Positions 1 to 11,384 are shown, counted from the first letter of the stretch. The stretch is DNA of 64,000 nucleotides from an uncultured Dehalococcoidia bacterium (GCA_964371355.1 CAYJMG010000017.1:10277-74276), one strand, 5' to 3'. The notes: generated from the letters alone by a model not told the origin. Translations and numbers: made by a program.

Positions 1-2
1 TC

Positions 3-716
3 GTGAGCCGCGGCGCGCAAAAGAACTTCGCAGACCACACAGTTCGCCTGAGGAAGCGGGGAGCGGTCAACGTCGATGCCGCATATTTCCATCGCCTTGC
101 TGCGAAGGCGATCCTCTTTCGGCGAGCCGAGCGGATCGTCCAGTCACTCAACCTTGGAGGATATCGGGCGAACGTCGTCACCTACTCGATTGCGTACATC
201 GCTCACAAGACATCCCACCGCATCGATCTTGATCGCATCTGGCGGGATCAAGACCTATCTCCTTCGTTGCAAGCGACGTTGGCAACGCTAGCGCCAGTGA
301 TCCATCTGCATCTAGTCGAAGGTGCGTCCGGCAAAAACGTCACTGAGTGGTGTAAGACGGATCAATGCTGGGCTTCGGTTCGGCAGTTGGAACTCGAGCT
401 GTCACCGGGCCTTTCAGCGGAACTCATATCTCGCGGTGAAGCCGTTGGCGTTCAGCGCGAACCAGAGAGCCTGGCCCCGGAAGCGCAGGTCCACATTGAA
501 CGCGTCAAGGAAATCCCATCCGAGACCTGGTATGCAGTAGCTAAGTGGGCCAAAGACACGAACAATCTCGCGGGGTGGCAACGTTCCCTGAGCTTCAGTC
601 TTGGCCGGTTGGCCGCGGCGAAGAGAGAGCCTTCGGCAAAGCAGGCTAAGCAAGGCGTGCTCATCTTGGAGGAGGCCGCTCGTCTTGGCTTCAGGTCGCC
701 TTTGGAAGAAGGTTAG
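3..716 (+). CDS. Hypothetical protein, 5'-truncated at the window edge (C-terminal 237 aa). Possible restriction or defence partner of the adjacent MTase-glycosylase pair.
   Basis: The ORF is open from the window start with no start codon and ends 5 nt before the glycosylase RBS. No recognisable catalytic motif, so function was not recognised. Context only: it lies inside the integrase/MTase island. Confidence 0.35.
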   Translation: MSRGAQKNFADHTVRLRKRGAVNVDAAYFHRLAAKAILFRRAERIVQSLNLGGYRANVVTYSIAYIAHKTSHRIDLDRIWRDQDLSPSLQATLATLAPVIHLHLVEGASGKNVTEWCKTDQCWASVRQLELELSPGLSAELISRGEAVGVQREPESLAPEAQVHIERVKEIPSETWYAVAKWAKDTNNLAGWQRSLSFSLGRLAAAKREPSAKQAKQGVLILEEAARLGFRSPLEEG

Positions 717-720
717 GTAC

Positions 721-1530
721 ATGGCGACGCACGGGTTCGCACATGAGCGCTCTATCGACGCGCGCCGCATCGGTCAGATTAGACGGGCCTTGGTACGCTG
801 GGGCGATGCGCACTTCCAGACTTACCCATGGCGCCGCGAGTTGCCGCTCTGGCAAGGGCTGGTTGCAGAAGTGCTGCTCCAAAGAACACGTGCCGCCCAG
901 GTCGCTCCTGTCTTTGATGAGCTGATCCGCCGCTATCCGTCGGCTCAACGCTTCGCGATGGCGTCTGAGCGCGACATCCAAGAGCTGATAACTTCGCTAG
1001 GTCTTCGCTGGCGCGCACCGCTTCTACATCGACTGGCCTCAAGTATCGGTGTGCGAAAGGGGCACCTCCCGAGGACACAAGTCGAGTTGGAAGCGCTCCC
1101 CGGTGTCGGGCCATACGCCGCGGGCGCAGCACTGAGCCTTCACGGGAATACTCGCGCTCTAATCATCGATTCCAATGTCGTGCGCGTTCTCTCAAGACTA
1201 GTTGGCGCGCCCTATGACGGTGAGACGCGTCGAAAGCGATGGCTGCGCGAGTTGTCGGATGAACTCACTCCGCACGACGGACACCGTCGATTCAACTACG
1301 CCCTCTTGGATTTGGCAATGCTGCTTTGCTCGCCACGATCGCCTCGCTGCAATGCTTGTCCCCTCCGAGCGATGTGTGTCACTGGGACTTCCCTAGCGGC
1401 CGGCGCCACGGCAGTGCGATCACCCTCCGCTGGAGTATCCGGACGCTGTGTCGTCCCAACCTCTAGGATGTCGCGAACAACACGAGCAACCTCGTACGCG
1501 AGTAGAGGTGGGACCGCGTTGCCCACTTGA
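721..1530 (+). CDS. HhH-GPD superfamily DNA glycosylase with a [4Fe-4S] cluster loop (Mig/MutY/EndoIII family). Probably a monofunctional T/U:G mismatch glycosylase.
   Basis: ATG at 721 with AAGG about 8 nt upstream. Helix-hairpin-helix LPGVGPYAAGA with Tyr, not Lys, after GVG (no EndoIII lyase lysine). Catalytic Asp in IIDSNVVRVLSRL. C-terminal C-x6-C-x2-C-x5-C (CSPRSPRCNACPLRAMC). The first in-frame stop is at 1528-1530. Confidence 0.75.
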   Translation: MATHGFAHERSIDARRIGQIRRALVRWGDAHFQTYPWRRELPLWQGLVAEVLLQRTRAAQVAPVFDELIRRYPSAQRFAMASERDIQELITSLGLRWRAPLLHRLASSIGVRKGHLPRTQVELEALPGVGPYAAGAALSLHGNTRALIIDSNVVRVLSRLVGAPYDGETRRKRWLRELSDELTPHDGHRRFNYALLDLAMLLCSPRSPRCNACPLRAMCVTGTSLAAGATAVRSPSAGVSGRCVVPTSRMSRTTRATSYASRGGTALPT

Positions 1531-3047
1531 ACGTATTGCTCGGTACGAGAGCCTTCGAATAGGTAGTTGTCCGGAAATGTTTGAAGTCGGGCGGCCTCGC
1601 GTACAGTGAGGCTTCTGCATTGCGTTGGATCCGGGTGGATGAAGTAGTGACCGTCCTTCGATATGTGCGACGTGATCGTGGTGGATGGACGGCCACGCAC
1701 CTGGACGCGAAACCGATCCGAGAATAGATTGCCGTTAAGGGCCTTCTTCGCATTGCCGTGATTCGGCAACAGGATGGCTGGAAAGTCCCTGAGTGTCGGG
1801 GAACGACCATAAACGCTGGCGAAGCAAGCCGCGAAGAAGTAGCGTTCGAGGTCGGCCTTGATGTGTCCCCTCGTCTCGTGGTTGCAGATACCCTGAAGCT
1901 TCGGGTCGCAGTACCAGTCTCTCCTGTACATTGGCCGACTCGGAATCCCAAGATAGGCGGCACCGCGTTTGGCATTCGGCACATGAATACGCTTGGCTGC
2001 GGCCTCAGCACATTTGAGAACCCTGCTGAGTTCCTGCGTTCTAAATTGTCTGCTGCCTCGCCAGGCATTCGTCGCGCCTGAGAATATGGATCGCCAATCG
2101 TCGTCTGAATCAGGTTGCTTCGAGAACCCGCTGCGCACGCGAGGCAGGTTGTCGATAACAGATTCGACTGCGATCGCGCTGACTTGCTCCAACACTCCAA
2201 GTTCGGGCGCACGGTTCGACCAATCCTCGCGGATACCGACAATGATTACCCGGTGTCTCGCCTGCGGAATGCCAAAGTCCTCACCCCGGATGACGAATTG
2301 CTCCGCGTCGTAGGCGTCGGTCGCTGGTGCAGACTCGTTTCGGACCAGCGGAAGAAGCACATATCGGAGCCCATTGCCCTCACCCAGCGCCTCCGTCGGT
2401 GCTCGGAGGTCAGACGCGATCAAGTCGAAGGTGTTTTGACCAGACAGCTTTGATGATAGTAAGCCCTTGACGTTTTCCATCACGAACAGCGGTGGCCGGT
2501 GGTCTGCGAGGATACGGAGATACTCCTTGTAGAGACGATGCCGACTATCCTTCTCAAACTGTTCGCGAGGTACGCGCGCCTGTCTCGAACGACCGGCGAG
2601 CGAGTACGCCTGGCAGGGCGGGCCACCAATCAATACCCAGAGTGAAATTCCACCCAAGGCCTTAGTGATACGTCGCTTCACACTGTCGTGCGGTTCGACT
2701 CCGAGTTCGGCTTGCCAAGCTTCTTGCTTCGCAGCCGCGCTCTCGTGTGGGTACGCCGCGAAGAGTTTTTCGCGCGTGAACTCGCCGCGGAGATAACGGT
2801 AGTATTCGCTCGGGGCATTGCCGGGCGGGAACTGACGAAAGAACGCTCTTAGTTCAAGCGTGGAGTGCGCAGCCTCGTCGCGTTCGACAGAGAGTGCGAT
2901 ACGGAATGCGCGCTTTCCCGGCGATGCGAACACGCTGGAGAATCCTTCGCCAAGGCCACCAGGCCCGGCGAACAAGTCGATGACCGGGATCGGCTTCGTC
3001 AATGGTTCGTCCGTGTGTCGCGATCGTACTACCCCGCCAATCGGCAC
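1296..3047 (-). CDS. dcm: DNA (cytosine-5)-methyltransferase, 583 aa, with a long target-recognition region.
   Basis: Motif I IDLFAGPGGLGEGF, motif IV GGPPCQAYSLAG, motif VI FVMENVKGL, motif X QVGNAVPPLLAYEVA. Confidence 0.9.
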   Translation of the reverse strand: MPIGGVVRSRHTDEPLTKPIPVIDLFAGPGGLGEGFSSVFASPGKRAFRIALSVERDEAAHSTLELRAFFRQFPPGNAPSEYYRYLRGEFTREKLFAAYPHESAAAKQEAWQAELGVEPHDSVKRRITKALGGISLWVLIGGPPCQAYSLAGRSRQARVPREQFEKDSRHRLYKEYLRILADHRPPLFVMENVKGLLSSKLSGQNTFDLIASDLRAPTEALGEGNGLRYVLLPLVRNESAPATDAYDAEQFVIRGEDFGIPQARHRVIIVGIREDWSNRAPELGVLEQVSAIAVESVIDNLPRVRSGFSKQPDSDDDWRSIFSGATNAWRGSRQFRTQELSRVLKCAEAAAKRIHVPNAKRGAAYLGIPSRPMYRRDWYCDPKLQGICNHETRGHIKADLERYFFAACFASVYGRSPTLRDFPAILLPNHGNAKKALNGNLFSDRFRVQVRGRPSTTITSHISKDGHYFIHPDPTQCRSLTVREAARLQTFPDNYLFEGSRTEQYVQVGNAVPPLLAYEVARVVRDILEVGTTQRPDTPAEGDRTAVAPAAREVPVTHIARRGQALQRGDRGEQSSIAKSKRA

Positions 3048-3106
3048 TTCCCAAGAAGCAGATCTTACCGACTTCGCCTATGACGAGATAGCCTCGAGCT
3101 GCGCTG

Positions 3107-4069
3107 CTACCTGCCGCCCAGCCGATCCGCTGGCGACAGCTTCTTGTGTGCGCGTCGGGCACGGACGCCGGCCGTGGCCTTCGTGTAGCGCTGGACCATC
3201 TGGAGCGAGTTCCAGCCGGCGAGCTGCTGCAGGTCCTCGGCGTAGCCGCCGCCGTCCAGGTACGCGATGGCGAACGAGCGCCGGAAGCCGTGGATGCCCT
3301 TGAACGGCACGCCGGCTTCCTTGAAGCGCCGGCGCAGACACATGCGGAGCGCGTTGAAGCTCATCGGCTGGCCGCGCGTCGAGACGAAGACGAAGTCGGC
3401 CACGGTGGCCGGGCGCTTCCTTAGGTACTTGTCGAGCGCCACGGCGGCCTTGCTACCAAGCCCCACAATGCGCTCCTTGCCACCCTTGCCGGTGACCTTG
3501 ATCGTCTGTTCGTCCATGTCGAGGTCATCCATGCGGATCCCGCACAGCTCGGAGGCGCGGACCCCCGTGTCGTAGAGCACCATCACCATGGCGCGGTCCC
3601 GCAGCGAGGTCCACGACTTGTCGCCGCACGCCTTGAGCACGCGCTCCAGGCCCTCGGTCCCATAATGCTCCTTGATGGTGTCGGGCACCTTCGGCGGCTT
3701 GATGCGCAGCATCGGGTTCTCGCGGATCTCGCCTTCCTCGACGAGCCAGCGGTAGAAACGCTTGAGCGACCGGTAACGCTGGTTCACCGTCGAGGGAGCG
3801 TTGCGCTCCTGCATGTCGCCGAGGAACTCGCGGACGTGCTCGGTGCTCATCGCCGGGATCGGCGCCATTCCCTTGTGAAGCCGGAACGCCTCCAGCCGCT
3901 TGATGGCGTCCGCGTAGATATTGAACGTCTTCTCGGTCAGGCCCTCGGCGCGGAGGGTCAGTCGGAAGCTCGACAGGAGCGCTTGGATGCTCGGGCCGGC
4001 GTCCGCTGGGTCCGAATAATTAGGCGCACTTGGATGCAAGCTGCGAGTGGGGCTGGACATGGGGCACAC
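3107..4069 (-). CDS. Tyrosine site-specific recombinase / phage-type integrase.
   Basis: N-terminal SAM-like core-binding region. Catalytic region GVRASEL...HGFRRSFA...LAGWNSLQMVQRYTKA (R..H-x-x-R..Y). Lies 50 nt from the tRNA 3' end, in the same orientation. Confidence 0.85.
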   Translation of the reverse strand: MCPMSSPTRSLHPSAPNYSDPADAGPSIQALLSSFRLTLRAEGLTEKTFNIYADAIKRLEAFRLHKGMAPIPAMSTEHVREFLGDMQERNAPSTVNQRYRSLKRFYRWLVEEGEIRENPMLRIKPPKVPDTIKEHYGTEGLERVLKACGDKSWTSLRDRAMVMVLYDTGVRASELCGIRMDDLDMDEQTIKVTGKGGKERIVGLGSKAAVALDKYLRKRPATVADFVFVSTRGQPMSFNALRMCLRRRFKEAGVPFKGIHGFRRSFAIAYLDGGGYAEDLQQLAGWNSLQMVQRYTKATAGVRARRAHKKLSPADRLGGR

Positions 4070-4118
4070 CTCCGAATCTCTTACCTATAGATTCGGCAGC
4101 GTGCGCCTAATTATGAAC

Positions 4119-4194
4119 TGGAGCGGGAGATGGGACTCGAACCCACGACCCTCTGCTTGGGAAGCAGATGCTCTACCGGCTGAGCTACTCCCGC
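4119..4194 (-). tRNA. tRNA-Gly (anticodon CCC), CCA encoded.
   Basis: Reverse complement reads GCGGGAG-TA-GCTC-AGCCGGTA-GAGC-A-TCTGC-TTCCCAA-GCAGA-GGGTC-GTGGG-TTCGAGT-CCCAT-CTCCCGC-T-CCA. Acceptor stem 7/7, anticodon stem 5/5, GTTCGAGTC T-loop. Confidence 0.85.
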
Positions 4195-4660: not shown

Positions 4661-6181
4661 ATGAGTGCAACCACCGAGATTTCCACGCAGACGCCACGAC
4701 CGACCGACGCCGCGCGCTACCTGGCCCTGCTGAGCCGCTGGTGGTGGCTGCTGGTGGCCGGCGCCACGATCGCGGGCATCGCCGCGTATTTCGTGACCGG
4801 CACCATCGCGCCGACCTACCGCGCGTCGTCGACGCTGCTCATCAACCAGGTCGAGACGCCCGGCTCAATCGTCTACAGCGACGTGCTCACGAGCGAGCGC
4901 CTGACGAAGACTTACCGCGAACTGATCACGAAGCGCCCGATCCTGGAGACCGTCATCGAAGACGCGGACGAGCCGGGGCTCACCGTCGACGAGCTGTCCG
5001 GGAAGCTGGACACGAAGGCGGTGAAAGACACCCAGCTCGTGACCATCTCCGTGAGCGATGAGTCGCCCCAGCGCGCGGCGCGGCTGGCGAATCTTGTCGC
5101 GAGCACGTTTGTGCGCGAAGAGAGCGAGGACGCCCTGACGCGGACCGGCACCACGCGGATCGTGGAGCCGGCCACGGTGCCTGGCGCGCCCATCGCGCCG
5201 AATCTGAAGCTGAATCTGGCGCTTGCGGTGTTGGCGGGCCTGGTGCTTGCGGGCGGGGTGGCGCTGCTCATCGAGTATCTGGACGACACGATCAAGTCGC
5301 CCGACGACGTGAGCATGGCCTCGGGACTGGCGACGCTGGGCGAAGTGGGGCGGCTGCCGCACGACAAGGACCGCATTCCGCTCAGCACACGCGGGCTGCC
5401 CATGCACGAGGCGGAGACGTACGCGATCCTCCGCACCAACATCCAGTTCAGCTCCATCGCGCACCCGGCCCAGGTGATCCTCGTGGCCAGCGCCAACAGC
5501 GGCGACGGCAAGTCGACGACGTCCGCGAACTACGCCCTGGCATGCGCGGAGTCCGGCAAGCGCGTGGCGCTGGTCGACGCGGACCTGCGGCGGCCGACCC
5601 TGCACCGCGCCTTCGGGCTGGAGAACACAAGCGGACTGACGTCAGTGCTACTGGACGGCGCGTCGCTGGACGAGCGGTCGCTGATTCCCACCAGCCACCC
5701 CAACCTGTTCGTCGTACCCAGCGGCCCTCTGCCGCCGAACCCGACGGAGCTGCTGGAGTGGGTCGGCTTCGACGCCATCATCGAACAGATGAAGCAGAAG
5801 GTGGATGTGATCGTCATCGACAGCTCGCCGCTGCTGGCCGTGGCCGACGCGCGGATCCTTGCAGCGAAAGCTGACGCCACGATCCTCGTGGTCGAGCAGG
5901 GACGGACGCGCGCGAGCGCGCTGCGTGCCGCCTACCACGCGACGGCTCGCGCAAATGCGAACGTACTGGGCGTGGTGCTGAACAAGGTGCGGCGCGGCCG
6001 CAGTGGCTACGGCTCGTACTACTACTACTACGACCGGTCGTACGCGGTGCGCGGCGGCGATTCCGGGGGCGGCGGCGGACGCGGCAGGCTCCCGGAACTG
6101 GCGGCGATTCAACTGGCGCCGGCACACGGCAGTGCGGAGGCGGGACGCGGGGGGGCGGCCGCGGACGAGACGCGCGTGTAG
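4661..6181 (+). CDS. Polysaccharide co-polymerase / tyrosine autokinase (fused Wzz-like transmembrane module plus BY-kinase, Wzc/CpsCD-like).
   Basis: Two TM segments flank a ~130 aa extracytoplasmic loop. Walker A ASANSGDGKSTTSAN. C-terminal Tyr cluster GYGSYYYYYDRSY. Confidence 0.85.
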   Translation: MSATTEISTQTPRPTDAARYLALLSRWWWLLVAGATIAGIAAYFVTGTIAPTYRASSTLLINQVETPGSIVYSDVLTSERLTKTYRELITKRPILETVIEDADEPGLTVDELSGKLDTKAVKDTQLVTISVSDESPQRAARLANLVASTFVREESEDALTRTGTTRIVEPATVPGAPIAPNLKLNLALAVLAGLVLAGGVALLIEYLDDTIKSPDDVSMASGLATLGEVGRLPHDKDRIPLSTRGLPMHEAETYAILRTNIQFSSIAHPAQVILVASANSGDGKSTTSANYALACAESGKRVALVDADLRRPTLHRAFGLENTSGLTSVLLDGASLDERSLIPTSHPNLFVVPSGPLPPNPTELLEWVGFDAIIEQMKQKVDVIVIDSSPLLAVADARILAAKADATILVVEQGRTRASALRAAYHATARANANVLGVVLNKVRRGRSGYGSYYYYYDRSYAVRGGDSGGGGGRGRLPELAAIQLAPAHGSAEAGRGGAAADETRV

Positions 6182-6255
6182 GCACGACACAAACGGGGGA
6201 GATGGGACCGGCCGCTGGGCCGGATCCATGCAAAGGACACGAGGAGGAACACAGC

Positions 6256-6837
6256 ATGCTCAGGATTGCATCGCTACTTGCCGTCGTCACGTCGACGATG
6301 CTGATCGCCTCGATGGCGGGCACGGCTCACGCGCAGTACCCGCCGCCGGGCTCGAGCCTGACGGTCACGGCAGGGCAGACGACGGCGACCGCCGGCCAGA
6401 CGGTCCCCATTACGGCAGTGCTCCGCGACAACGACGGCGACGTACTGGCGAACCAGGCCTGCGTGGCACGCGTGGCGCGCCAGCCCGGCACGGGCGCCAG
6501 CGTTTCACCGACTGACGTCACGACCGATGGCAACGGCGCGGCGCGCACGACGCTCAACGTCGGTAGCACGCCCGGCACGATTGAGGTCGAGGTGGTCTGC
6601 GGCACTATCACCGGCCGGGTCAGCGTGATCCTGTCGGCCGCGGCGCAGCCCCCGCAGTCGCCCATCGAGCTGCCGAGCACAGGCAGCGGGCCCGACTCGC
6701 AGTCCGGTGGACTGACGGCGGTCCTGCTGATCACCGCGGGCGCTATCGCGCTGCTGGGCGCGCGCAGGTACGCACGCACGACGCGCACAAGCGGAAAGCG
6801 ACCATCGACTCGGGCGGCGCACGGCCAGGCGAGCTAG
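6256..6837 (+). CDS. Small secreted Ig-like (Big-type) surface protein with an LPXTG-type cell-wall sorting signal.
   Basis: GAGGAGGA RBS before the ATG at 6256. Signal peptide MLRIASLLAVVTSTMLIASMAGTAHA. Beta-rich Thr/Gly domain. LPSTG, then a 17-aa hydrophobic stretch, then a basic tail RRYARTTR. Confidence 0.6.
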   Translation: MLRIASLLAVVTSTMLIASMAGTAHAQYPPPGSSLTVTAGQTTATAGQTVPITAVLRDNDGDVLANQACVARVARQPGTGASVSPTDVTTDGNGAARTTLNVGSTPGTIEVEVVCGTITGRVSVILSAAAQPPQSPIELPSTGSGPDSQSGGLTAVLLITAGAIALLGARRYARTTRTSGKRPSTRAAHGQAS

Positions 6838-6870
6838 CCGAAACACGGGGATAGGAAGGAGCCAGGCCGG

Positions 6871-8838
6871 GTGTCAGCTCGAGCCATCGCGTGGACGCCC
6901 TGGCTTCGATCGGGCATCGCGAGGCGCGGCGGCCTGCTGGCCTGGATCCTGGCGGCGCTGTTGGTCGCCGGTGTGGTCGAGGGATACCGCGCGGCCATGG
7001 TGCTCCGCGACATCAACCAGGGACGAGCATCGCTCCAACGGGGGGAAGACGTGCTGGAGACGAGACGACTCGACGCGAAGACGGAGGACCTGCGATCGGC
7101 GCGCACGGCGTTCGAGTCGGCGGGCGACGACTTCGCGGCAGCGCAAGGCAGGATGAGCCGCGACCCGCTGCTGTGGGCCGCCGGCCACCTCCCCTTCGCA
7201 GGCCGACAGGTGGACGCGGCCGGGGATCTCGCCGCTGTCGGTGCCGAGGCGAGCGCGATCGGCCTTGCCGCCGTCGATGCCGCCGACGAGTTCGCGGCCG
7301 TGCGCGATGGCGACAGCGGGAGCCTGCTGGAGACCAGCGTCGAGGTCCTGGACCGCACCGCGCCCGCGTTCGACAAGATCGACATGCACCTGTCGCAGGT
7401 GGACGCCCTGCGCAACGGGCTGAGCGGCGGCGCGCTGCTGCCACCCCTGTCCGGCGCGGTCGATAAGCTCGACGAGCGGCGCGAGCACATCGCGACCATC
7501 ATCCAGACGTACGGTGACGCCCGCGCATTCCTGCCGGCGTTCCTGGGGTTCTCCGGGCCGAAGTGTTACCTGGTCCTGGCGCACAACAACGCCGAGCTTT
7601 TGCCCACGGGTGGGCTCGTCAGCGTGCTGGGGCTCATGTGCCTGGAGCGCGGTCGCATGACCACGTTCGAGTTCACCGACGCGATCGAGTTTGGCATGGA
7701 CTGGATGCGGGCCGGCGGAGCGTACGAACCGCCTCCGGGGCCGCTCGACCGCTATCTGCTGAAGGGCGTGACCTGGAACCTCAGCGTCTCGAACTGGTCG
7801 CCTGACTTCCCGACCGCCGCGCGGGAGGCACAGCGGTTCTACGAGCTGGGCGGCGGTGGTCCCGTCGACGGCGTCATCGGGATCAACGTGCGGACGCTGG
7901 AGCGGATGCTGGCCGTGACCGGACCGGTGGAGATCCCCGAATACGGGGTGATGGCCACCAGCAGCAACGTCTTCGACCTCACCGAGCAGTACACGCGCGA
8001 CCCGTCAGCGCCCGATGCGGACCGGAAGGAGTTCGTTGCCCTGCTGGCGCGCGAGGTGCTGGACCGCTCGCTACACCCGGAGACCGGGAACTGGAGCGGG
8101 TTCATCGACCTGGTGCAGAAGCTGGGCGACGAGAAGGAGCTGCTCATCTACGCGAACGACCCAACGCTACAGGATGCCGTCCGCGACCTTGGCGTGGCGG
8201 GCGAGGCCCGCTACGAAGGCGGCGACTTCCTGATGCTGGTGGATGCGAGCGTCAACGGCACCAAGCTCAACGCCGTCATGGAACAGTCGCTCAGCATCGA
8301 CGTGCTGCTGGACGAGCGCGGCGCCGCGCACACGGCGGTCACTATCGACTACTTCAACAACCTCGCGCCGTGGGAGGAGGGCCGGGATCCCGCGCTCGTC
8401 CGAAAGTTGATGCTGGGCGGCGTGTACGGCGACTACGTACGCCTGTACGTGCCACCCGGCAGCACTATCGCCGACGTGCGTGACGAGTTGGGGACCATCG
8501 GGGTGGAGGATGTCGGCGACGAACTGGGGCTGACAGTGTTCGGCCGCTTCTTCACGGTGCCGCGGGACACGCGCCGCCAGTTGAGCTTTTCCTATGTCAC
8601 GCCGGCCGTCGTCGACCTGCGGAGCGGGCGCGAGGCACTGTACCGGCTCACGATCCGCAAGCAGCCGGGCCAGCGCGCGCTGCCCGTCACGCTGCGCCTT
8701 TCGGCGCCGAGCGGCGCCCGCGTCTCCGCGGTGCGCGTGAACGGAGAGAGCGCGGAGCCAGCGGAAGCTGGTCTCCAGATCGAGCTGACGAGGGACTTCG
8801 TCATCGAATACAGCATCGAAAGGACAGGTGCGCAGTGA
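6871..8838 (+). CDS. Membrane-anchored hypothetical protein (N-terminal TM, large extracytoplasmic domain, DUF4012-like).
   Basis: GTG start with GGAAGGA about 10 nt upstream. A single N-terminal TM helix. Synteny with the glycan locus. The family assignment is from memory only. Confidence 0.45.
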   Translation: MSARAIAWTPWLRSGIARRGGLLAWILAALLVAGVVEGYRAAMVLRDINQGRASLQRGEDVLETRRLDAKTEDLRSARTAFESAGDDFAAAQGRMSRDPLLWAAGHLPFAGRQVDAAGDLAAVGAEASAIGLAAVDAADEFAAVRDGDSGSLLETSVEVLDRTAPAFDKIDMHLSQVDALRNGLSGGALLPPLSGAVDKLDERREHIATIIQTYGDARAFLPAFLGFSGPKCYLVLAHNNAELLPTGGLVSVLGLMCLERGRMTTFEFTDAIEFGMDWMRAGGAYEPPPGPLDRYLLKGVTWNLSVSNWSPDFPTAAREAQRFYELGGGGPVDGVIGINVRTLERMLAVTGPVEIPEYGVMATSSNVFDLTEQYTRDPSAPDADRKEFVALLAREVLDRSLHPETGNWSGFIDLVQKLGDEKELLIYANDPTLQDAVRDLGVAGEARYEGGDFLMLVDASVNGTKLNAVMEQSLSIDVLLDERGAAHTAVTIDYFNNLAPWEEGRDPALVRKLMLGGVYGDYVRLYVPPGSTIADVRDELGTIGVEDVGDELGLTVFGRFFTVPRDTRRQLSFSYVTPAVVDLRSGREALYRLTIRKQPGQRALPVTLRLSAPSGARVSAVRVNGESAEPAEAGLQIELTRDFVIEYSIERTGAQ

Positions 8839-8945
8839 GGGCGAGGGCAGCAACCAACGGCCACGTGCCGGCGCAGGCGACCACGGCACGCCTGAACGGC
8901 GCGAGCCATGCTTCGACGAACGGATCGCATCCCGCGCCGAAGGCC

Positions 8946-10355
8946 ATGATCCTGGCGGCGGGCGCAGGCACGCGCCTGAAGCCGCTGACGGACCGCGTGC
9001 CAAAGGCGATGGTGCCCATCGCCGGCAAGCCGCTGCTGGAGCACACGATCGAGCTGCTCGCCCGGAGCGGCGTGCGCGAGATCGCCGTCAACCTGCACGC
9101 GCACGCCGACGTCATCGCCGACGAGCTGGGCGACGGGTCGCGGTTCGGAGTCGCGCTCCGCTACTCCTTCGAACCACGGCTGCTGGGCACGGCCGGCGCG
9201 GTGAAGGCGCTGGCGTCCTTCTTCTCATCGGGTGCGTCGGGCACATCGGGCTCGTCGGGGCCGTTCTACGTCGTCTACGGCGACGTGTTCACACTGATCG
9301 ACCCGCGCCGGATCATGGAAGCGCACCGTGTACACGGCGCGCTGGCGACGATCGCCCTGCGGCGGCCGGACGACGCGAGTCAGTGCGGCATCGTCCAGCA
9401 GGACGCCGAAGGATGGGTCACGGGATTCGTCGAGAAGCCGGCCCCCGGCCAAGCGCCCGCGGACGCCTGGGCGAACGCCGGGATCTACGTGCTGGACCCC
9501 GCCGTACTGGACACCATCGAGGCGGGCATCCCGCAGGACTTCGGCGCCGACGTGTTCGGCGCGCTGGCATCGAACGGCCGCGCGCTCTTCGGATATCGGA
9601 CCGACGCCGCCTGCTGGGACATCGGGTCCGCCACGCGGCTGCGCGAAGCGGACGCGGCGTTGCGAGCGCTCCACGTCACGAGCCCGCGCCGCCGGGCGGT
9701 CGAGCGCGCGGTCGATGCGTACATCGGTGACATTGCCGCGGCCATATCGGCGCTGGACCAGCGTGCCATCGTGCAGGCTGCCGAGCTGCTGCTCGATGCG
9801 CGGACACGCGGGAACGCCGTCTACATCATCGGGAACGGCGGGAGCGCGACGACAGCCAGCCACATGGCGGCGGACCTGGTACGCGCGGCGATGGAGTCCG
9901 ATGGGCCGCCCCTGAACTGCCGCGCGCTCTGCGACAACGTGGCGGTCCTCTCGGCCTGGGCGAACGACGTCGGCTACGAGGCGGTGTTCACACTACAGCT
10001 CTCGCAGATCCTCGCGCCGGGTGATGTCGTTGTCGCCATCTCCGCCAGCGGGAACTCACCCAACATCGTCGCCGCGGCGGAACTGGCGCGTGACCGGGGG
10101 GCATCGGTGCTGGGCTTCTCCGGCTTCGGCGGAGGCGCGCTGGCGCGGCTGTCCGATGTGGCGGTGGTGATCGATAGCGACGAGTACGGGCCGGTGGAGG
10201 ACGCGCACCTCCTGTTGAACCACCTGCTGGCCACAGCGATTCGGCGCGCCAGCCGCGGCGAGCGGCCCGAGGAACGCGGCGAGGACACGGATTCCGCCCA
10301 CGAAGGGAACGATGAGACTGCCGCGCCGGTGCGACGGCTGGCAGCGGCTGCCTGA
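8946..10355 (+). CDS. Bifunctional sugar-1-phosphate nucleotidyltransferase (HddC/ManC-like) fused to a SIS-domain sedoheptulose-7-phosphate isomerase (GmhA-like).
   Basis: N-terminal MILAAGAGTRLKPLT...PKAMVPIAGKPLL (NTP_transferase). C-terminal SIS domain AVYIIGNGGSATTASHMAADL...VVVAISASGNSPNIV. GAAGG RBS 7 nt before the ATG at 8946. The track's GTG start at 8835 adds an unlikely 37-aa extension. Confidence 0.7.
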   Translation: MILAAGAGTRLKPLTDRVPKAMVPIAGKPLLEHTIELLARSGVREIAVNLHAHADVIADELGDGSRFGVALRYSFEPRLLGTAGAVKALASFFSSGASGTSGSSGPFYVVYGDVFTLIDPRRIMEAHRVHGALATIALRRPDDASQCGIVQQDAEGWVTGFVEKPAPGQAPADAWANAGIYVLDPAVLDTIEAGIPQDFGADVFGALASNGRALFGYRTDAACWDIGSATRLREADAALRALHVTSPRRRAVERAVDAYIGDIAAAISALDQRAIVQAAELLLDARTRGNAVYIIGNGGSATTASHMAADLVRAAMESDGPPLNCRALCDNVAVLSAWANDVGYEAVFTLQLSQILAPGDVVVAISASGNSPNIVAAAELARDRGASVLGFSGFGGGALARLSDVAVVIDSDEYGPVEDAHLLLNHLLATAIRRASRGERPEERGEDTDSAHEGNDETAAPVRRLAAAA

Positions 10356-10370
10356 GACGCGAGGGAACGC

Positions 10371-11384
10371 ATGTTGATAGCACGAGCGCCGGTGCGCGTC
10401 AGCTTCTTCGGAGGCGGGACCGACTTGCCTGCGTACTACGAACAGCACGGCGGCGCCGTGCTGAGCGCGGCGATCGACAAGTACTTCTACGTGATCCTCG
10501 GGAACAGCGAGGGCTGCGTGCAGGTGTCGTCGTCGGACTACCGTACGTTCTTCCGCCACGAAGGACCGGCCCGGCGCCGGGTGGACGACGACCTTCGCCT
10601 GCCCAGGGCGGTGCTGGACGAATTCTCCGTGTACGAGGGGCTGTCTGTATTCCTGTCGTCGGAGGTGCCGCCCGGCACCGGGCTGGGTTCGTCCAGCGCG
10701 GTTACGGTCGCGCTCGTTAAGGCCATATCGACGTACTGCGGCCGCCAGATGTGTCAGCAAGATCTGGCCGAACTTGCGTGCGAGATCGAGATCGACCGGC
10801 TGGGACAGCCGATCGGAAAGCAGGACCAGTACGCGGCGGCGTTCGGCGGCCTGAACTTCATCGAGTTCCACCCGGACTCGCACGTGGATGTACAGCCCGT
10901 CGCGCTGCCACCTGAGACGCGGCTGGGGCTCGAGCGGCGGGTACTCCTGTTCTTCACGGGCATGTCCCGTGACGCCGCGACGATCCTGGGCGAGCAGCGC
11001 CGCAATCTCACCGAACACCGCGACGAGACGCTGCGAGCGTCCGACGAGATGAAGCGCCAGGCGTTCCACGCCCGCGATCTGCTCCGCGAAAACCGGCTGG
11101 ATGAGTTTGGGACGCTGCTGGATGACGCTTGGCACACGAAGAAGCGCGCGGCGGCGGGCGTCAGCAACGCCCGCACCGATCGCGCGTACGAGGTCGCACG
11201 CGGAGCGGGAGCGCTGGGCGCAAAAGTGGCCGGCGCCGGCGGCGGCGGATTCATGATCGTGTTCTCGCGCGACGGCTATCAGCAGCAGATCATTTCGGCC
11301 CTTGAGGCCGAGGGGCTGTCCGCAATGAAGTTCCGGTTCGAACCGAGTGGAGCGAGGGTGCTTGTCAATGCGCTGGCTGCCTGA
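10371..11384 (+). CDS. hddA: GHMP-family sugar kinase, D-glycero-alpha-D-manno-heptose-7-phosphate kinase (HddA-like).
   Basis: GHMP motif PPGTGLGSSSAVTVAL. N-terminal ARAPVRVSFFGGGTD. Adjacent to the GmhA/HddC fusion. Confidence 0.7.
   Translation: MLIARAPVRVSFFGGGTDLPAYYEQHGGAVLSAAIDKYFYVILGNSEGCVQVSSSDYRTFFRHEGPARRRVDDDLRLPRAVLDEFSVYEGLSVFLSSEVPPGTGLGSSSAVTVALVKAISTYCGRQMCQQDLAELACEIEIDRLGQPIGKQDQYAAAFGGLNFIEFHPDSHVDVQPVALPPETRLGLERRVLLFFTGMSRDAATILGEQRRNLTEHRDETLRASDEMKRQAFHARDLLRENRLDEFGTLLDDAWHTKKRAAAGVSNARTDRAYEVARGAGALGAKVAGAGGGGFMIVFSRDGYQQQIISALEAEGLSAMKFRFEPSGARVLVNALAA

What the first reader, a model, noticed from the sequence alone, without database searches (positions are those of the whole stretch)
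1..4194. Integrative island at tRNA-Gly(CCC) carrying a Dcm-type MTase paired with a Mig/MutY-like glycosylase
The tRNA, integrase, 583-aa C5-MTase and HhH-GPD/[4Fe-4S] glycosylase are contiguous. The glycosylase has Tyr instead of the EndoIII lyase Lys (LPGVGPYAAGA), and its IIDSNVVRV block resembles Mig/MutY enzymes. This looks like the thermophile solution in which a T:G mismatch glycosylase replaces Vsr to counter m5C deamination (Mig.MthI next to M.MthTI on the Methanobacterium plasmid). Here it is on a mobile island in a high-GC bacterium. The truncated upstream ORF could be the restriction partner.
Basis: partly seen in the sequence, partly recalled or inferred. Interest (0 to 1): 0.6.

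Follow-up and report, generated by a model that had tools for sequence, protein, structure and literature searches.

The report
DISARM island with Vsr-like mismatch glycosylase
The region is the integrase end of a mobile island at a glycine tRNA gene; it carries a DISARM-type anti-phage system whose cytosine methylase sits next to a small MutY/Mig-type glycosylase that most likely repairs the T:G mismatches the methylation causes, a new bacterial example of a known arrangement.

Summary
tRNA-Gly(CCC), a tyrosine integrase, a 583-aa C5-methyltransferase and a 269-aa HhH-GPD/[4Fe-4S] glycosylase are contiguous. GC is 57-61% here against 68-72% in the flank.

An identical contig extends the window leftwards. 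The "truncated ORF" is the end of a 682-aa AIPR protein, preceded by DrmB, DrmA, a NERD/UvrD helicase and DrmE. This is a class-2-like DISARM system, and the methylase is DrmMII-type.

The glycosylase has Mig.MthI-type residues at five of six base-pocket positions and MutY-type at none. It lacks MutY's C-terminal domain.

In 68 related genome loci, 48 of 55 Mig-like homologs lie next to a C5 methylase, usually overlapping it as dcm-vsr do. About 23 also have an EcoRII-like enzyme nearby. None of 13 true MutY genes has a methylase neighbour (p = 2.5e-9).

Homologous DISARM operons carry Vsr, another Mig-like glycosylase, or neither.

Not established: enzyme activity, the methylase target motif and an att repeat. 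Placement relative to archaeal Mig is unresolved. It is a new member of a known kind.

The parts
1..716 (+). 3' end (last 237 codons) of a 682-aa AIPR (abortive-infection family) gene. It is the sixth gene of an operon that starts outside the window: DrmE-like, NERD/UvrD helicase, DrmA, DrmB, AIPR.
   Evidence: Pfam AIPR 2.7e-14 and NCBIfam/PADLOC MzaE-like partial match. The full gene on the identical contig, L001 7948-9996, has AIPR 2.8e-104 plus AIPR_N 5.6e-37. Upstream are DrmB 1.4e-75, DrmA 1.4e-213, NERD+UvrD_C_2 and DrmE_C 2e-07.
721..1530 (+). Mig-like monofunctional HhH-GPD/[4Fe-4S] DNA glycosylase (269-aa ORF). The conserved domain ends near 1400. The tail 1405-1530 is a non-conserved read-through overlapping the MTase 3' end. 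The ATG at 721 lies 5 nt after the AIPR stop codon.
   Evidence: TIGR01084 mutY 142 bits (below the cutoff of 286.5) and nth 55 bits. PADLOC PDLC03398 'Type II nicking endonuclease' 7.5e-28. PDB: EcMutY core 1.5e-34, Mig.MthI 1kea 2.1e-28. Diagnostic residues Y35, R38, R55, A58, Y132, Y193. AF2 pLDDT 87.6; Foldseek 1kea TM 0.88, MutY core 0.86, EndoIII 0.78. The exact protein occurs on 16 contigs.
1296..3047 (-). DrmMII-type DNA (cytosine-5) methyltransferase, 583 aa, convergent with the glycosylase. Target motif not determined.
   Evidence: PF00145 3.6e-45, TIGR00675 dcm 5.5e-41. Best PADLOC model is DrmMII, 3.2e-93. Homologs at 45-55% identity lie next to glycosylase homologs in 15 genome loci. 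PDB gives only generic hits such as M.HaeIII and DNMT1.
3107..4069 (-). Tyrosine recombinase (island integrase), Xer-like, starting 50 nt downstream of the tRNA 3' end.
   Evidence: Phage_integrase 4.7e-35 and Phage_int_SAM_4 2.1e-13. Below the XerC/XerD equivalog cutoffs. A homologous integrase sits at the same position in the relative island.
4119..4194 (-). tRNA-Gly(CCC), the integration target and right boundary of the island.
   Evidence: ARAGORN and Rfam RF00005 71.8 bits. Homology with the relative island ends at the tRNA 5' end (window ~4200). The GC shift follows.

Best explanation
Window 1-4194 is the integrase-proximal end of a mobile island inserted at the 3' end of tRNA-Gly(CCC). 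The island is about 30 kb in a close relative. Its cargo is an anti-phage module. One operon encodes a ~300-340-aa protein, then DrmE, a NERD/UvrD helicase, DrmA, DrmB, AIPR and the glycosylase. A convergent DrmMII-type C5 methylase follows. The methylase marks host DNA as self for the DISARM (and perhaps AIPR) machinery. 5-methylcytosine deaminates to thymine and leaves T:G mismatches. The small MutY/Mig-family glycosylase most likely removes that thymine (and uracil from U:G), and host base-excision repair then restores C:G. It has no lyase Lys and no 8-oxoG-reading domain. It would therefore be the functional equivalent of Vsr and lower the mutational cost of carrying the methylase. Shown here: the gene identities, the gene order, the Mig-type residue signature and the family-wide linkage to C5 methylases. 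Inferred: the T:G activity, the methylation motif and the mobility.
For: Anatomy. An identical contig extends the window and shows DrmE_C, NERD/UvrD, DrmA (1.4e-213), DrmB (1.4e-75) and AIPR. The residue signature was checked against a verified Mig.MthI sequence and EcMutY. Window residues Y35/R38/R55/A58/Y132/Y193 compare with Mig F27/R30/R47/A50/Y126/L187 and EcMutY L22/Q25/Q42/V45/S120/Q182; these are the positions discussed in PMC2714593. E50, R55, A58, Y132 and D150 are invariant in 25 family members. Context: 40 of 65 upstream neighbours are PF00145 and 14 of 64 downstream neighbours are EcoRII-C. By residue signature, 48 of 55 Mig-like loci and 0 of 13 MutY-like loci have a C5 MTase within 3.5 kb, p = 2.5e-9. 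No Vsr lies within 10 kb of any glycosylase locus or in the window. Homologous DISARM operons end with MTase+Vsr (Pelotomaculum), MTase plus an overlapping, more distant Mig-like HhH-GPD gene (L087), or MTase alone. Island: GC drop. The relative island has the same order, sits at tRNA-Gly(CCC), has an unrelated right flank, and carries primase-helicase, ArdC-N, HTH_17 and HTH_3/M78 genes.
Against: No enzymatic data exist. Position 193 is Tyr, not Mig's Leu187. PMC2714593 shows that these residues alone do not convert MutY to a thymine glycosylase, and that Bacillus MutY also has the Tyr. Overall similarity is higher to MutY than to Mig.MthI, and the NJ tree does not join the family to Mig.MthI (18% against 63% of replicates). 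Here the glycosylase is co-transcribed with AIPR and the DISARM genes, not with the methylase. DrmC (PLD) is absent, so the DISARM assignment is to a variant. No att repeat was found and the left end of the island is missing from every contig of this organism. The methylase motif is unknown.
Confidence: 0.7

Rival explanations
1. The glycosylase is a defence effector rather than a repair enzyme. It would be a base-excision 'restriction' activity or a partner of AIPR/DISARM that damages unmethylated or otherwise foreign DNA, with the methylase protecting self DNA.
For: It is the last gene of the DrmE-NERD-DrmA-DrmB-AIPR operon, 5 nt after AIPR. This DISARM variant lacks the PLD nuclease DrmC. 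AIPR-MTase-glycosylase triads recur without any other recognisable nuclease. Restriction glycosylases exist as a concept in the R.PabI family (PMC10273834).
Against: In about 23 loci the same family sits in MTase-glycosylase-EcoRII-like cassettes that already have a bona fide endonuclease. The usual position, overlapping the 3' end of the MTase gene, copies dcm-vsr. A homologous DISARM locus carries Vsr at that place. The pocket residues match a mismatch-thymine enzyme. Known restriction glycosylases have an unrelated fold.
Confidence: 0.1
2. It is an ordinary housekeeping MutY or EndoIII-type repair gene that merely happens to lie next to a methylase.
For: The best NCBIfam and PDB sequence matches are MutY. 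The fold search cannot separate MutY core from Mig.
Against: It scores below the MutY cutoff (142 against 286.5 bits) and far below the nth cutoff. It has no C-terminal 8-oxoG domain. V45, Q182, Q42, Q25 and L22 are all replaced. It lies in low-GC island DNA. Adjacency to C5 methylases is 48 of 55 against 0 of 13 for true MutY. There is no lyase Lys.
Confidence: 0.05
3. The region is a fixed chromosomal defence island, not a currently or recently mobile element. The integrase would be a remnant or a Xer-like recombinase.
For: No att direct repeat of 15 nt or more was found in 13.4 kb left of the tRNA, in the rest of the window, or in the relative's candidate boundary region. The integrase's best family hits are XerC/XerD-like.
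Against: The integrase is below the Xer equivalog cutoffs. GC is 10 points lower than the flank. A diverged island (~80% identical) sits at the same tRNA in a different genomic flank. Primase-helicase, ArdC-N, HTH_17 and ImmA/IrrE-type genes are present in the relative. Every contig breaks at one point inside the island, which suggests population heterogeneity.
Confidence: 0.15

Closest known systems
Mig.MthI (PDB 1KEA), the T:G/U:G mismatch glycosylase encoded with M.MthTI on Methanobacterium plasmid pFV1
   Same: Small size (~220 aa in homologs), HhH-GPD fold with a [4Fe-4S] cluster, and no C-terminal domain. It has Tyr at the lyase-Lys position, Ala at the MutY-V45 position, Arg at the R30 and R47 positions, and an aromatic residue at F27. 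It is genetically linked to a C5 methylase on a mobile element. The pFV1 linkage is my own knowledge of Horst & Fritz 1996, cited.
   Different: Only 27% identical. It is bacterial. It has Tyr instead of Leu187. Its tree position relative to Mig.MthI is unresolved. Its partner here is a DISARM/AIPR module, not a type II R-M pair. It is not confined to thermophiles.
Vsr endonuclease with Dcm (E. coli dcm-vsr)
   Same: The inferred role is the same: correcting T:G mismatches from 5mC deamination. In most related loci the gene position is also the same, immediately downstream of and overlapping the C5 methylase gene. The two are locally mutually exclusive. Vsr occupies the equivalent place in a homologous DISARM locus.
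   Different: The fold and chemistry are unrelated: a glycosylase making an abasic site rather than an endonuclease nicking 5' of the T. In this window the gene is convergent with the methylase, not downstream of it.
MutY adenine glycosylase
   Same: It gives the best overall sequence and fold match for the catalytic domain. The Glu and Asp catalytic pair and the Fe-S cluster are shared.
   Different: The window protein has no NUDIX-like C-terminal domain. Adenine-specificity residues V45 and Q182 are replaced. It scores below the family cutoff. True MutY genes recovered in the same scan are never next to methylases.
Class 2 DISARM (drmE-drmA-drmB-drmC-drmMII, Bacillus paralicheniformis)
   Same: DrmA, DrmB, a DrmE-like protein and a DrmMII-type 5mC methylase are present. 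Composition is as summarised in bioRxiv 10.1101/2021.12.28.474362.
   Different: There is no PLD DrmC. A NERD/UvrD helicase lies between DrmE and DrmA, and a conserved ~300-340-aa gene lies upstream of DrmE; both are conserved in Firmicutes homologs. AIPR and a mismatch glycosylase are added. The methylation motif is unknown, whereas CCWGG is reported for the Bacillus system.
AIPR / MzaE abortive-infection family
   Same: The full-length protein matches Pfam AIPR_N plus AIPR, and the PADLOC MzaE model at 4.4e-98.
   Different: No other MZA components are present. The NCBIfam MzaE score (89 bits on the fragment) is far below its cutoff of 1050. Here, and in eight other loci, it is linked to the C5 methylase and glycosylase.

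Membership tests
MutY/Mig family, Mig-type (T:G mismatch glycosylase) | HhH-GPD fold with catalytic Asp and the conserved Glu | tested here: met
   PF00730 1.3e-10. E50 and D150 are invariant. AF2 model against 1kea gives TM 0.88.
MutY/Mig family, Mig-type (T:G mismatch glycosylase) | [4Fe-4S] cluster loop C-X6-C-X2-C-X5-C | tested here: met
   C203, C210, C213 and C219 are invariant in the family. The Pfam EndIII_4Fe-2S match is weak (0.0086).
MutY/Mig family, Mig-type (T:G mismatch glycosylase) | Single domain, with no MutY C-terminal 8-oxoG-recognition domain | tested here: met
   Homologs are 220-250 aa. The window's extra 40 residues are non-conserved and low-confidence.
MutY/Mig family, Mig-type (T:G mismatch glycosylase) | Tyr in place of the EndoIII lyase Lys (Mig Y126), indicating a monofunctional enzyme | tested here: met
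   Y132 is invariant. The Y126K conversion to a lyase is cited in PMC9945173.
MutY/Mig family, Mig-type (T:G mismatch glycosylase) | Thymine-pocket residues A50, L187, F27, R30 and R47 instead of MutY V45, Q182, L22, Q25 and Q42 | tested here: inconclusive
   A58, R38 and R55 are identical to Mig and Y35 is aromatic like F27. Position 193 is Tyr, neither Leu nor Gln.
MutY/Mig family, Mig-type (T:G mismatch glycosylase) | Groups with Mig.MthI rather than MutY in a phylogeny | tested here: inconclusive
   NJ with 100 bootstraps: the MutY clade has 100% support. Family plus MutY excluding Mig occurs in 63% of replicates and family plus Mig excluding MutY in 18%.
MutY/Mig family, Mig-type (T:G mismatch glycosylase) | Excises T and U opposite G | not testable with these tools
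   This needs an enzyme assay.
MutY/Mig family, Mig-type (T:G mismatch glycosylase) | Genetic linkage to a 5mC methyltransferase | tested here: met
   It is adjacent and overlapping in the window. Linkage is 48 of 55 family loci against 0 of 13 MutY loci.
MutY (adenine glycosylase) | V45 and Q182 adenine pocket, C-terminal domain, and a score above the TIGR01084 cutoff | tested here: not met
   The residues are A58 and Y193 and there is no C-terminal domain. The score is 141.8 against a cutoff of 286.5 bits.
Endonuclease III (Nth) | Lyase Lys120 and a score above the TIGR01083 cutoff | tested here: not met
   Tyr132 occupies that position. The score is 55.3 against 211.7 bits.
Class 2 DISARM | DrmA helicase and DrmB (DUF1998/MZB) adjacent to each other | tested here: met
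   PADLOC DrmA 1.4e-213 and DrmB 1.4e-75 on the identical contig L001/L071.
Class 2 DISARM | DrmMII C5 methylase | tested here: met
   The best PADLOC model is DrmMII, 3.2e-93, together with PF00145.
Class 2 DISARM | DrmE | tested here: met
   PF24957 DrmE_C 2e-07, 31.3 bits against a cutoff of 27. There is no PADLOC hit.
Class 2 DISARM | DrmC (PLD nuclease) | tested here: not met
   No PLD-domain gene occurs in the operon or in the relative's ~30-kb island. DrmC is reported to be dispensable.
tRNA-integrated genomic island | Tyrosine integrase next to the 3' end of a tRNA gene, with deviant composition | tested here: met
tRNA-integrated genomic island | Direct repeat of the tRNA 3' end (att) at the far boundary | tested here: inconclusive
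   None was found in the window, in 13.4 kb to the left, or in the relative's boundary region. This organism's left end is not assembled.
tRNA-integrated genomic island | The same element at the same target in a different genomic background | tested here: met
   The relative island (80% nt identity) sits at tRNA-Gly(CCC) with an unrelated right flank.

The most novel reading that the evidence does not exclude
The Mig-like glycosylase, together with AIPR, is an integral working part of a DrmC-less DISARM variant and not just a mutation-sparing accessory. For example, it could generate abasic sites in foreign DNA that the NERD nuclease-helicase or AIPR then process, giving a base-excision arm of DISARM immunity.
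Probability: 0.08. Interest if true: 0.75.

Novelty: new member of a known kind. Interest (0 to 1): 0.42.

Why it matters
The finding points to a large, uncharacterised bacterial clade of MutY/Mig glycosylases. This clade appears to do for C5 methylases what Vsr does for Dcm. It occurs in EcoRII-type restriction-modification cassettes, in AIPR-methylase modules and in DISARM class 2 loci.

The finding also shows that DISARM operons carry either Vsr, a Mig-like glycosylase, or neither. That makes the mutational cost of defence-associated 5mC methylation directly testable.

For annotation, these genes should not be called mutY or 'A/G-specific adenine glycosylase', as sources currently do. In addition, the NERD/UvrD helicase and the gene upstream of DrmE look like conserved parts of a DISARM class 2 variant.

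Tried and rejected
- **att site.** I searched for the tRNA 3' end exactly and with mismatches. I looked in L001/L071 (13.4 kb left of the tRNA), in the whole window, and in the relative island's far end (L081). I found only chance matches of 14 nt or less.
- **Leftward extension.** All ~15 contigs of this organism stop about 160 nt upstream of DrmE.
- **Collection scans.** The viral-contig scan found nothing. The metagenome scan did recover the relative's contig.
- **Exact look-up of the MTase.** It is not on record. It was probably never called as a gene, because its 235-nt overlap with the glycosylase blocks gene callers; the ORF is intact in L001.
- **MTase specificity.** PDB and NCBIfam give only generic C5-MTase matches, so no motif can be assigned. 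CCWGG is suggested only indirectly, by EcoRII and MvaI/BcnI neighbours of other family members and by the published DrmMII motif.
- **Fold search.** It cannot separate Mig from the MutY core.
- **Promoter, terminator and RNA scans.** The promoter/terminator scan was at chance level. Rfam found only the tRNA.
- **Literature.** I found no paper linking HhH-GPD glycosylases to DISARM or AIPR. The original Mig paper and Ofir et al. 2018 are not held.
Full report
**Observation**

The elements are present as described.
- ARAGORN and Rfam find tRNA-Gly(CCC) at 4119-4194 on the minus strand.
- A 320-aa tyrosine recombinase (3107-4069, minus) starts 50 nt from the tRNA 3' end.
- A 583-aa C5 methyltransferase occupies 1296-3047 (minus; PF00145 3.6e-45).
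- A 269-aa HhH-GPD glycosylase with a C-X6-C-X2-C-X5-C cluster occupies 721-1530 (plus).
- The ORF at 3-716 runs off the left edge.
- GC is 0.57-0.61 in 1-3000 and 0.67-0.72 beyond 5000.

Two details were not in the finding. The glycosylase and methylase ORFs converge and overlap by 235 nt. The last ~40 codons of the glycosylase ORF have no counterpart in homologs, which end 8-12 residues after the last Cys. That tail is predicted with pLDDT ~50, so it is a read-through tail.

**What lies to the left**

The exact glycosylase protein is on 16 assembled contigs. One of them (ENA ERZ13693126 NODE_656; loci L001 and L071) is identical to the window over 11,530 nt and extends it 10.3 kb leftwards. 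The truncated ORF is the end of a 682-aa AIPR protein (AIPR 2.8e-104, AIPR_N 5.6e-37). Upstream, on the same strand and tightly spaced, lie:
- DrmB (PADLOC 1.4e-75)
- DrmA (1.4e-213)
- a 575-aa NERD plus UvrD-like helicase
- a DrmE-like protein (DrmE_C 2e-07)

The methylase's best defence-system model is DrmMII (3.2e-93). The cargo is therefore a class-2-like DISARM system. A preprint held in the library summarises class 2 as drmA, drmB, drmC and drmMII, sometimes with drmE; drmC is dispensable and the methylase is nearly essential. No PLD DrmC is present here.

The NERD helicase and a ~300-340-aa gene upstream of DrmE are conserved in homologous operons of Desulforamulus, Pelotomaculum and two metagenomic genomes. 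They appear to belong to this DISARM variant.

**What the glycosylase is**
- It scores 141.8 bits on the MutY equivalog model (cutoff 286.5) and 55.3 on Nth (cutoff 211.7).
- Its PDB sequence matches are the E. coli MutY core (1.5e-34) and Mig.MthI 1KEA (2.1e-28), with EndoIII far behind.
- PADLOC's REBASE-derived 'Type II nicking endonuclease' model of 221 positions matches at 7.5e-28.
- An AF2 model (pLDDT 87.6) superposes equally well on 1KEA (TM 0.88) and the MutY core (0.86), and less well on EndoIII (0.78).

Overall similarity therefore does not decide between MutY and Mig. The base-pocket residues do. PMC2714593 lists the positions that distinguish the two enzymes. I verified my copy of the Mig.MthI sequence against 1KEA and aligned it.

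| Enzyme | pos. 1 | pos. 2 | pos. 3 | pos. 4 | pos. 5 | pos. 6 |
|---|---|---|---|---|---|---|
| E. coli MutY | L22 | Q25 | Q42 | V45 | S120 | Q182 |
| Mig.MthI | F27 | R30 | R47 | A50 | Y126 | L187 |
| Window protein | Y35 | R38 | R55 | A58 | Y132 | Y193 |

Five of six positions are Mig-like and none is MutY-like. R55, A58 and Y132 are invariant, and R38 and Y193 nearly so, in 25 homologs of 47-70% identity. Tyr at the lyase-Lys position predicts a monofunctional enzyme; Y126K turns Mig into a lyase (PMC9945173 abstract).

There are caveats. Position 193 is Tyr rather than Leu. The same paper shows that V45A/Q182L does not make MutY a thymine glycosylase. A neighbour-joining tree does not place the family with Mig.MthI: family plus MutY excluding Mig appears in 63% of replicates, and family plus Mig in 18%.

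**Comparative context, the strongest evidence**

A scan of one genome per species returned 68 loci. Thirteen of them, all Armatimonadota-type with ORFs of 350-400 aa, carry the MutY signature (Q, V, Q). None has a C5 methylase nearby.

Of the other 55 loci, 48 have a C5 methylase within 3.5 kb (Fisher p = 2.5e-9). Pfam scans of the neighbours gave these results:
- 40 of 65 immediate upstream neighbours are PF00145.
- 14 of 64 immediate downstream neighbours are EcoRII-C.
- Further EcoRII-N, MvaI/BcnI and Mrr-type hits also occur.

The commonest arrangement is methylase, glycosylase, then an EcoRII-like endonuclease. The glycosylase start overlaps the methylase stop, which is the dcm-vsr layout. 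No Vsr homolog occurs within 10 kb of any of these loci, or in the window.

Other recurring arrangements are:
- AIPR-methylase-glycosylase triads occur in L005, L006, L009, L011, L012, L014, L015 and L018.
- DISARM genes occur with the glycosylase in L003, L007, L013, L020 and L036; all but L003 also show the close methylase homolog (in L003 a 397-aa C5 methylase was found by motif).

Sampling DISARM operons through the NERD helicase instead gave four outcomes:
- Pelotomaculum carries an NmeDI-type endonuclease, a C5 methylase and Vsr.
- A 2.6-Mb metagenomic contig (L087) carries a methylase plus a more distant Mig-like HhH-GPD gene that overlaps it by 8 nt. Its signature is F, R, K, A, Y, W.
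- Two operons carry a methylase only.

Annotated plasmids show the same pairing. A Thermus plasmid has integrase, methylase and glycosylase in order. A Bacillus plasmid has the glycosylase near dcm and an MvaI/BcnI enzyme.

Vsr and Mig-like glycosylases thus appear to be alternative accessories of the same kind of methylase.

**Mobility**

A groundwater-metagenome relative (loci L074-L078, ~80% nt identity) has the same gene order and is also inserted at tRNA-Gly(CCC). Its sequence beyond the tRNA is unrelated to the window's flank. Its island continues leftwards through these genes before reaching purD:
- HTH_17
- ArdC-N
- ADDT
- an AEP-type primase-helicase
- ThiF plus Multiubiquitin
- an HTH_3/Peptidase_M78 pair

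That gives an island of roughly 29-31 kb.

I found no att repeat of 15 nt or more in either organism. In the window's organism every contig ends about 160 nt upstream of DrmE, so its left boundary cannot be examined. The two tRNA genes are identical only in their 3'-terminal 12 nt, so any core may be too short to tell from chance. The island reading is well supported, but att is not demonstrated.

**Mechanism, with shown and inferred steps**

Shown:
- the gene content and order
- the Mig-type signature
- the family-wide methylase linkage
- substitution by Vsr in a homologous system

Inferred:
1. The methylase marks self DNA for DISARM, and possibly for AIPR.
2. Deamination of 5mC gives T:G mismatches.
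3. The glycosylase removes T (or U).
4. Host AP endonuclease, polymerase and ligase restore C:G, lowering the mutational cost of the island.

The methylation motif is unknown. CCWGG is only a lead, from the EcoRII and MvaI partners of other family members and the published Bacillus DrmMII motif.

**Rivals**
- **Defence-effector role.** Operon position and the missing DrmC favour it. The R-M cassettes that already have endonucleases, and the Vsr substitution, argue against it.
- **Housekeeping MutY or Nth.** This is excluded by cutoffs, domain content, residues and context.
- **Non-mobile defence island.** This remains possible only in the sense that att is unproven.

**Novelty**

The principle, a mismatch glycosylase of the MutY/Mig family accompanying a 5mC methylase on a mobile element, has been known since Mig.MthI. 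PMC1636421 states that Mig enzymes evolved against 5mC deamination. A REBASE-derived model already recognises such proteins. This is therefore a new member of a known kind. The following appear not to be described in the library searched:
- the size and coherence of the bacterial clade
- its Tyr193 variant pocket
- its presence in DISARM class 2 and AIPR modules

Interest is moderate.

Noticed in passing
L078 15357-15403 (relative island's right flank): A 44-nt direct repeat of the 5' half of tRNA-Gly(CCC), plus 5 nt of its upstream flank, lies 1.9 kb beyond the intact tRNA. The repeat and the tRNA bracket a 473-aa ORF with no Pfam match. It looks like a second small insertion into the same tRNA gene from the other side. 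It is absent from the window.
   Followed up: partly
L071 1-160 (contig end, about 10.3 kb left of window position 1): All ~15 contigs carrying this island end at the same point, about 160 nt upstream of DrmE. This falls inside the position of a gene that is conserved upstream of DrmE in relatives. Homology to the relative starts only at L071 position 56. The pattern suggests strain heterogeneity or a repeat at that spot.
   Followed up: partly
L071 3464-7009 (DrmA), cluster members P0257 and P0259: In one sample's 93,417-nt contig DrmA is called as two products of 760 and 425 aa instead of 1181 aa. This is a possible frameshifted or inactivated DrmA variant in the population, or an assembly error.
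   Followed up: no
L082, L083, L086, L087 and L074-L078: A NERD plus UvrD-like helicase (~575 aa) between DrmE and DrmA, and a ~300-340-aa gene overlapping the DrmE start, are conserved in DISARM class-2-like operons that lack a PLD DrmC. These operons come from Firmicutes, Chloroflexota and Rhodothermales. The helicase has 1297 homologs at E <= 1e-20.
   Followed up: partly
L081 12207-16980 (far part of the relative's island): ThiF (E1-like) and Multiubiquitin genes lie next to an HTH_3/Peptidase_M78 pair and an ExoX-like gene. This may be a ubiquitin-like conjugation defence module on the same island.
   Followed up: no
window 3490-3504 compared with L002: A second strain (ERZ13692944) differs from the window by a 15-nt indel inside the integrase gene (312/317 aa calls) and by single substitutions at window positions 65 and 2250.
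   Followed up: no
window 4661-11000 and beyond: The high-GC flank right of the tRNA is an exopolysaccharide-type cluster. It encodes a Wzz/GNVR plus ParA-like tyrosine-kinase protein, DUF4012, an NTP_transferase-SIS fusion, a GHMP kinase and a Bac_transf protein. This is consistent with chromosomal backbone.
   Followed up: no
L085 4001-4642 (Thermus thermophilus plasmid pTthSNM7-6d): A Mig-like glycosylase reading frame overlaps the 3' end of the annotated cytosine methyltransferase, directly after an integrase. It has no entry of its own in the plasmid gene table. Elsewhere, database sources name these proteins 'A/G-specific adenine glycosylase'.
   Followed up: no
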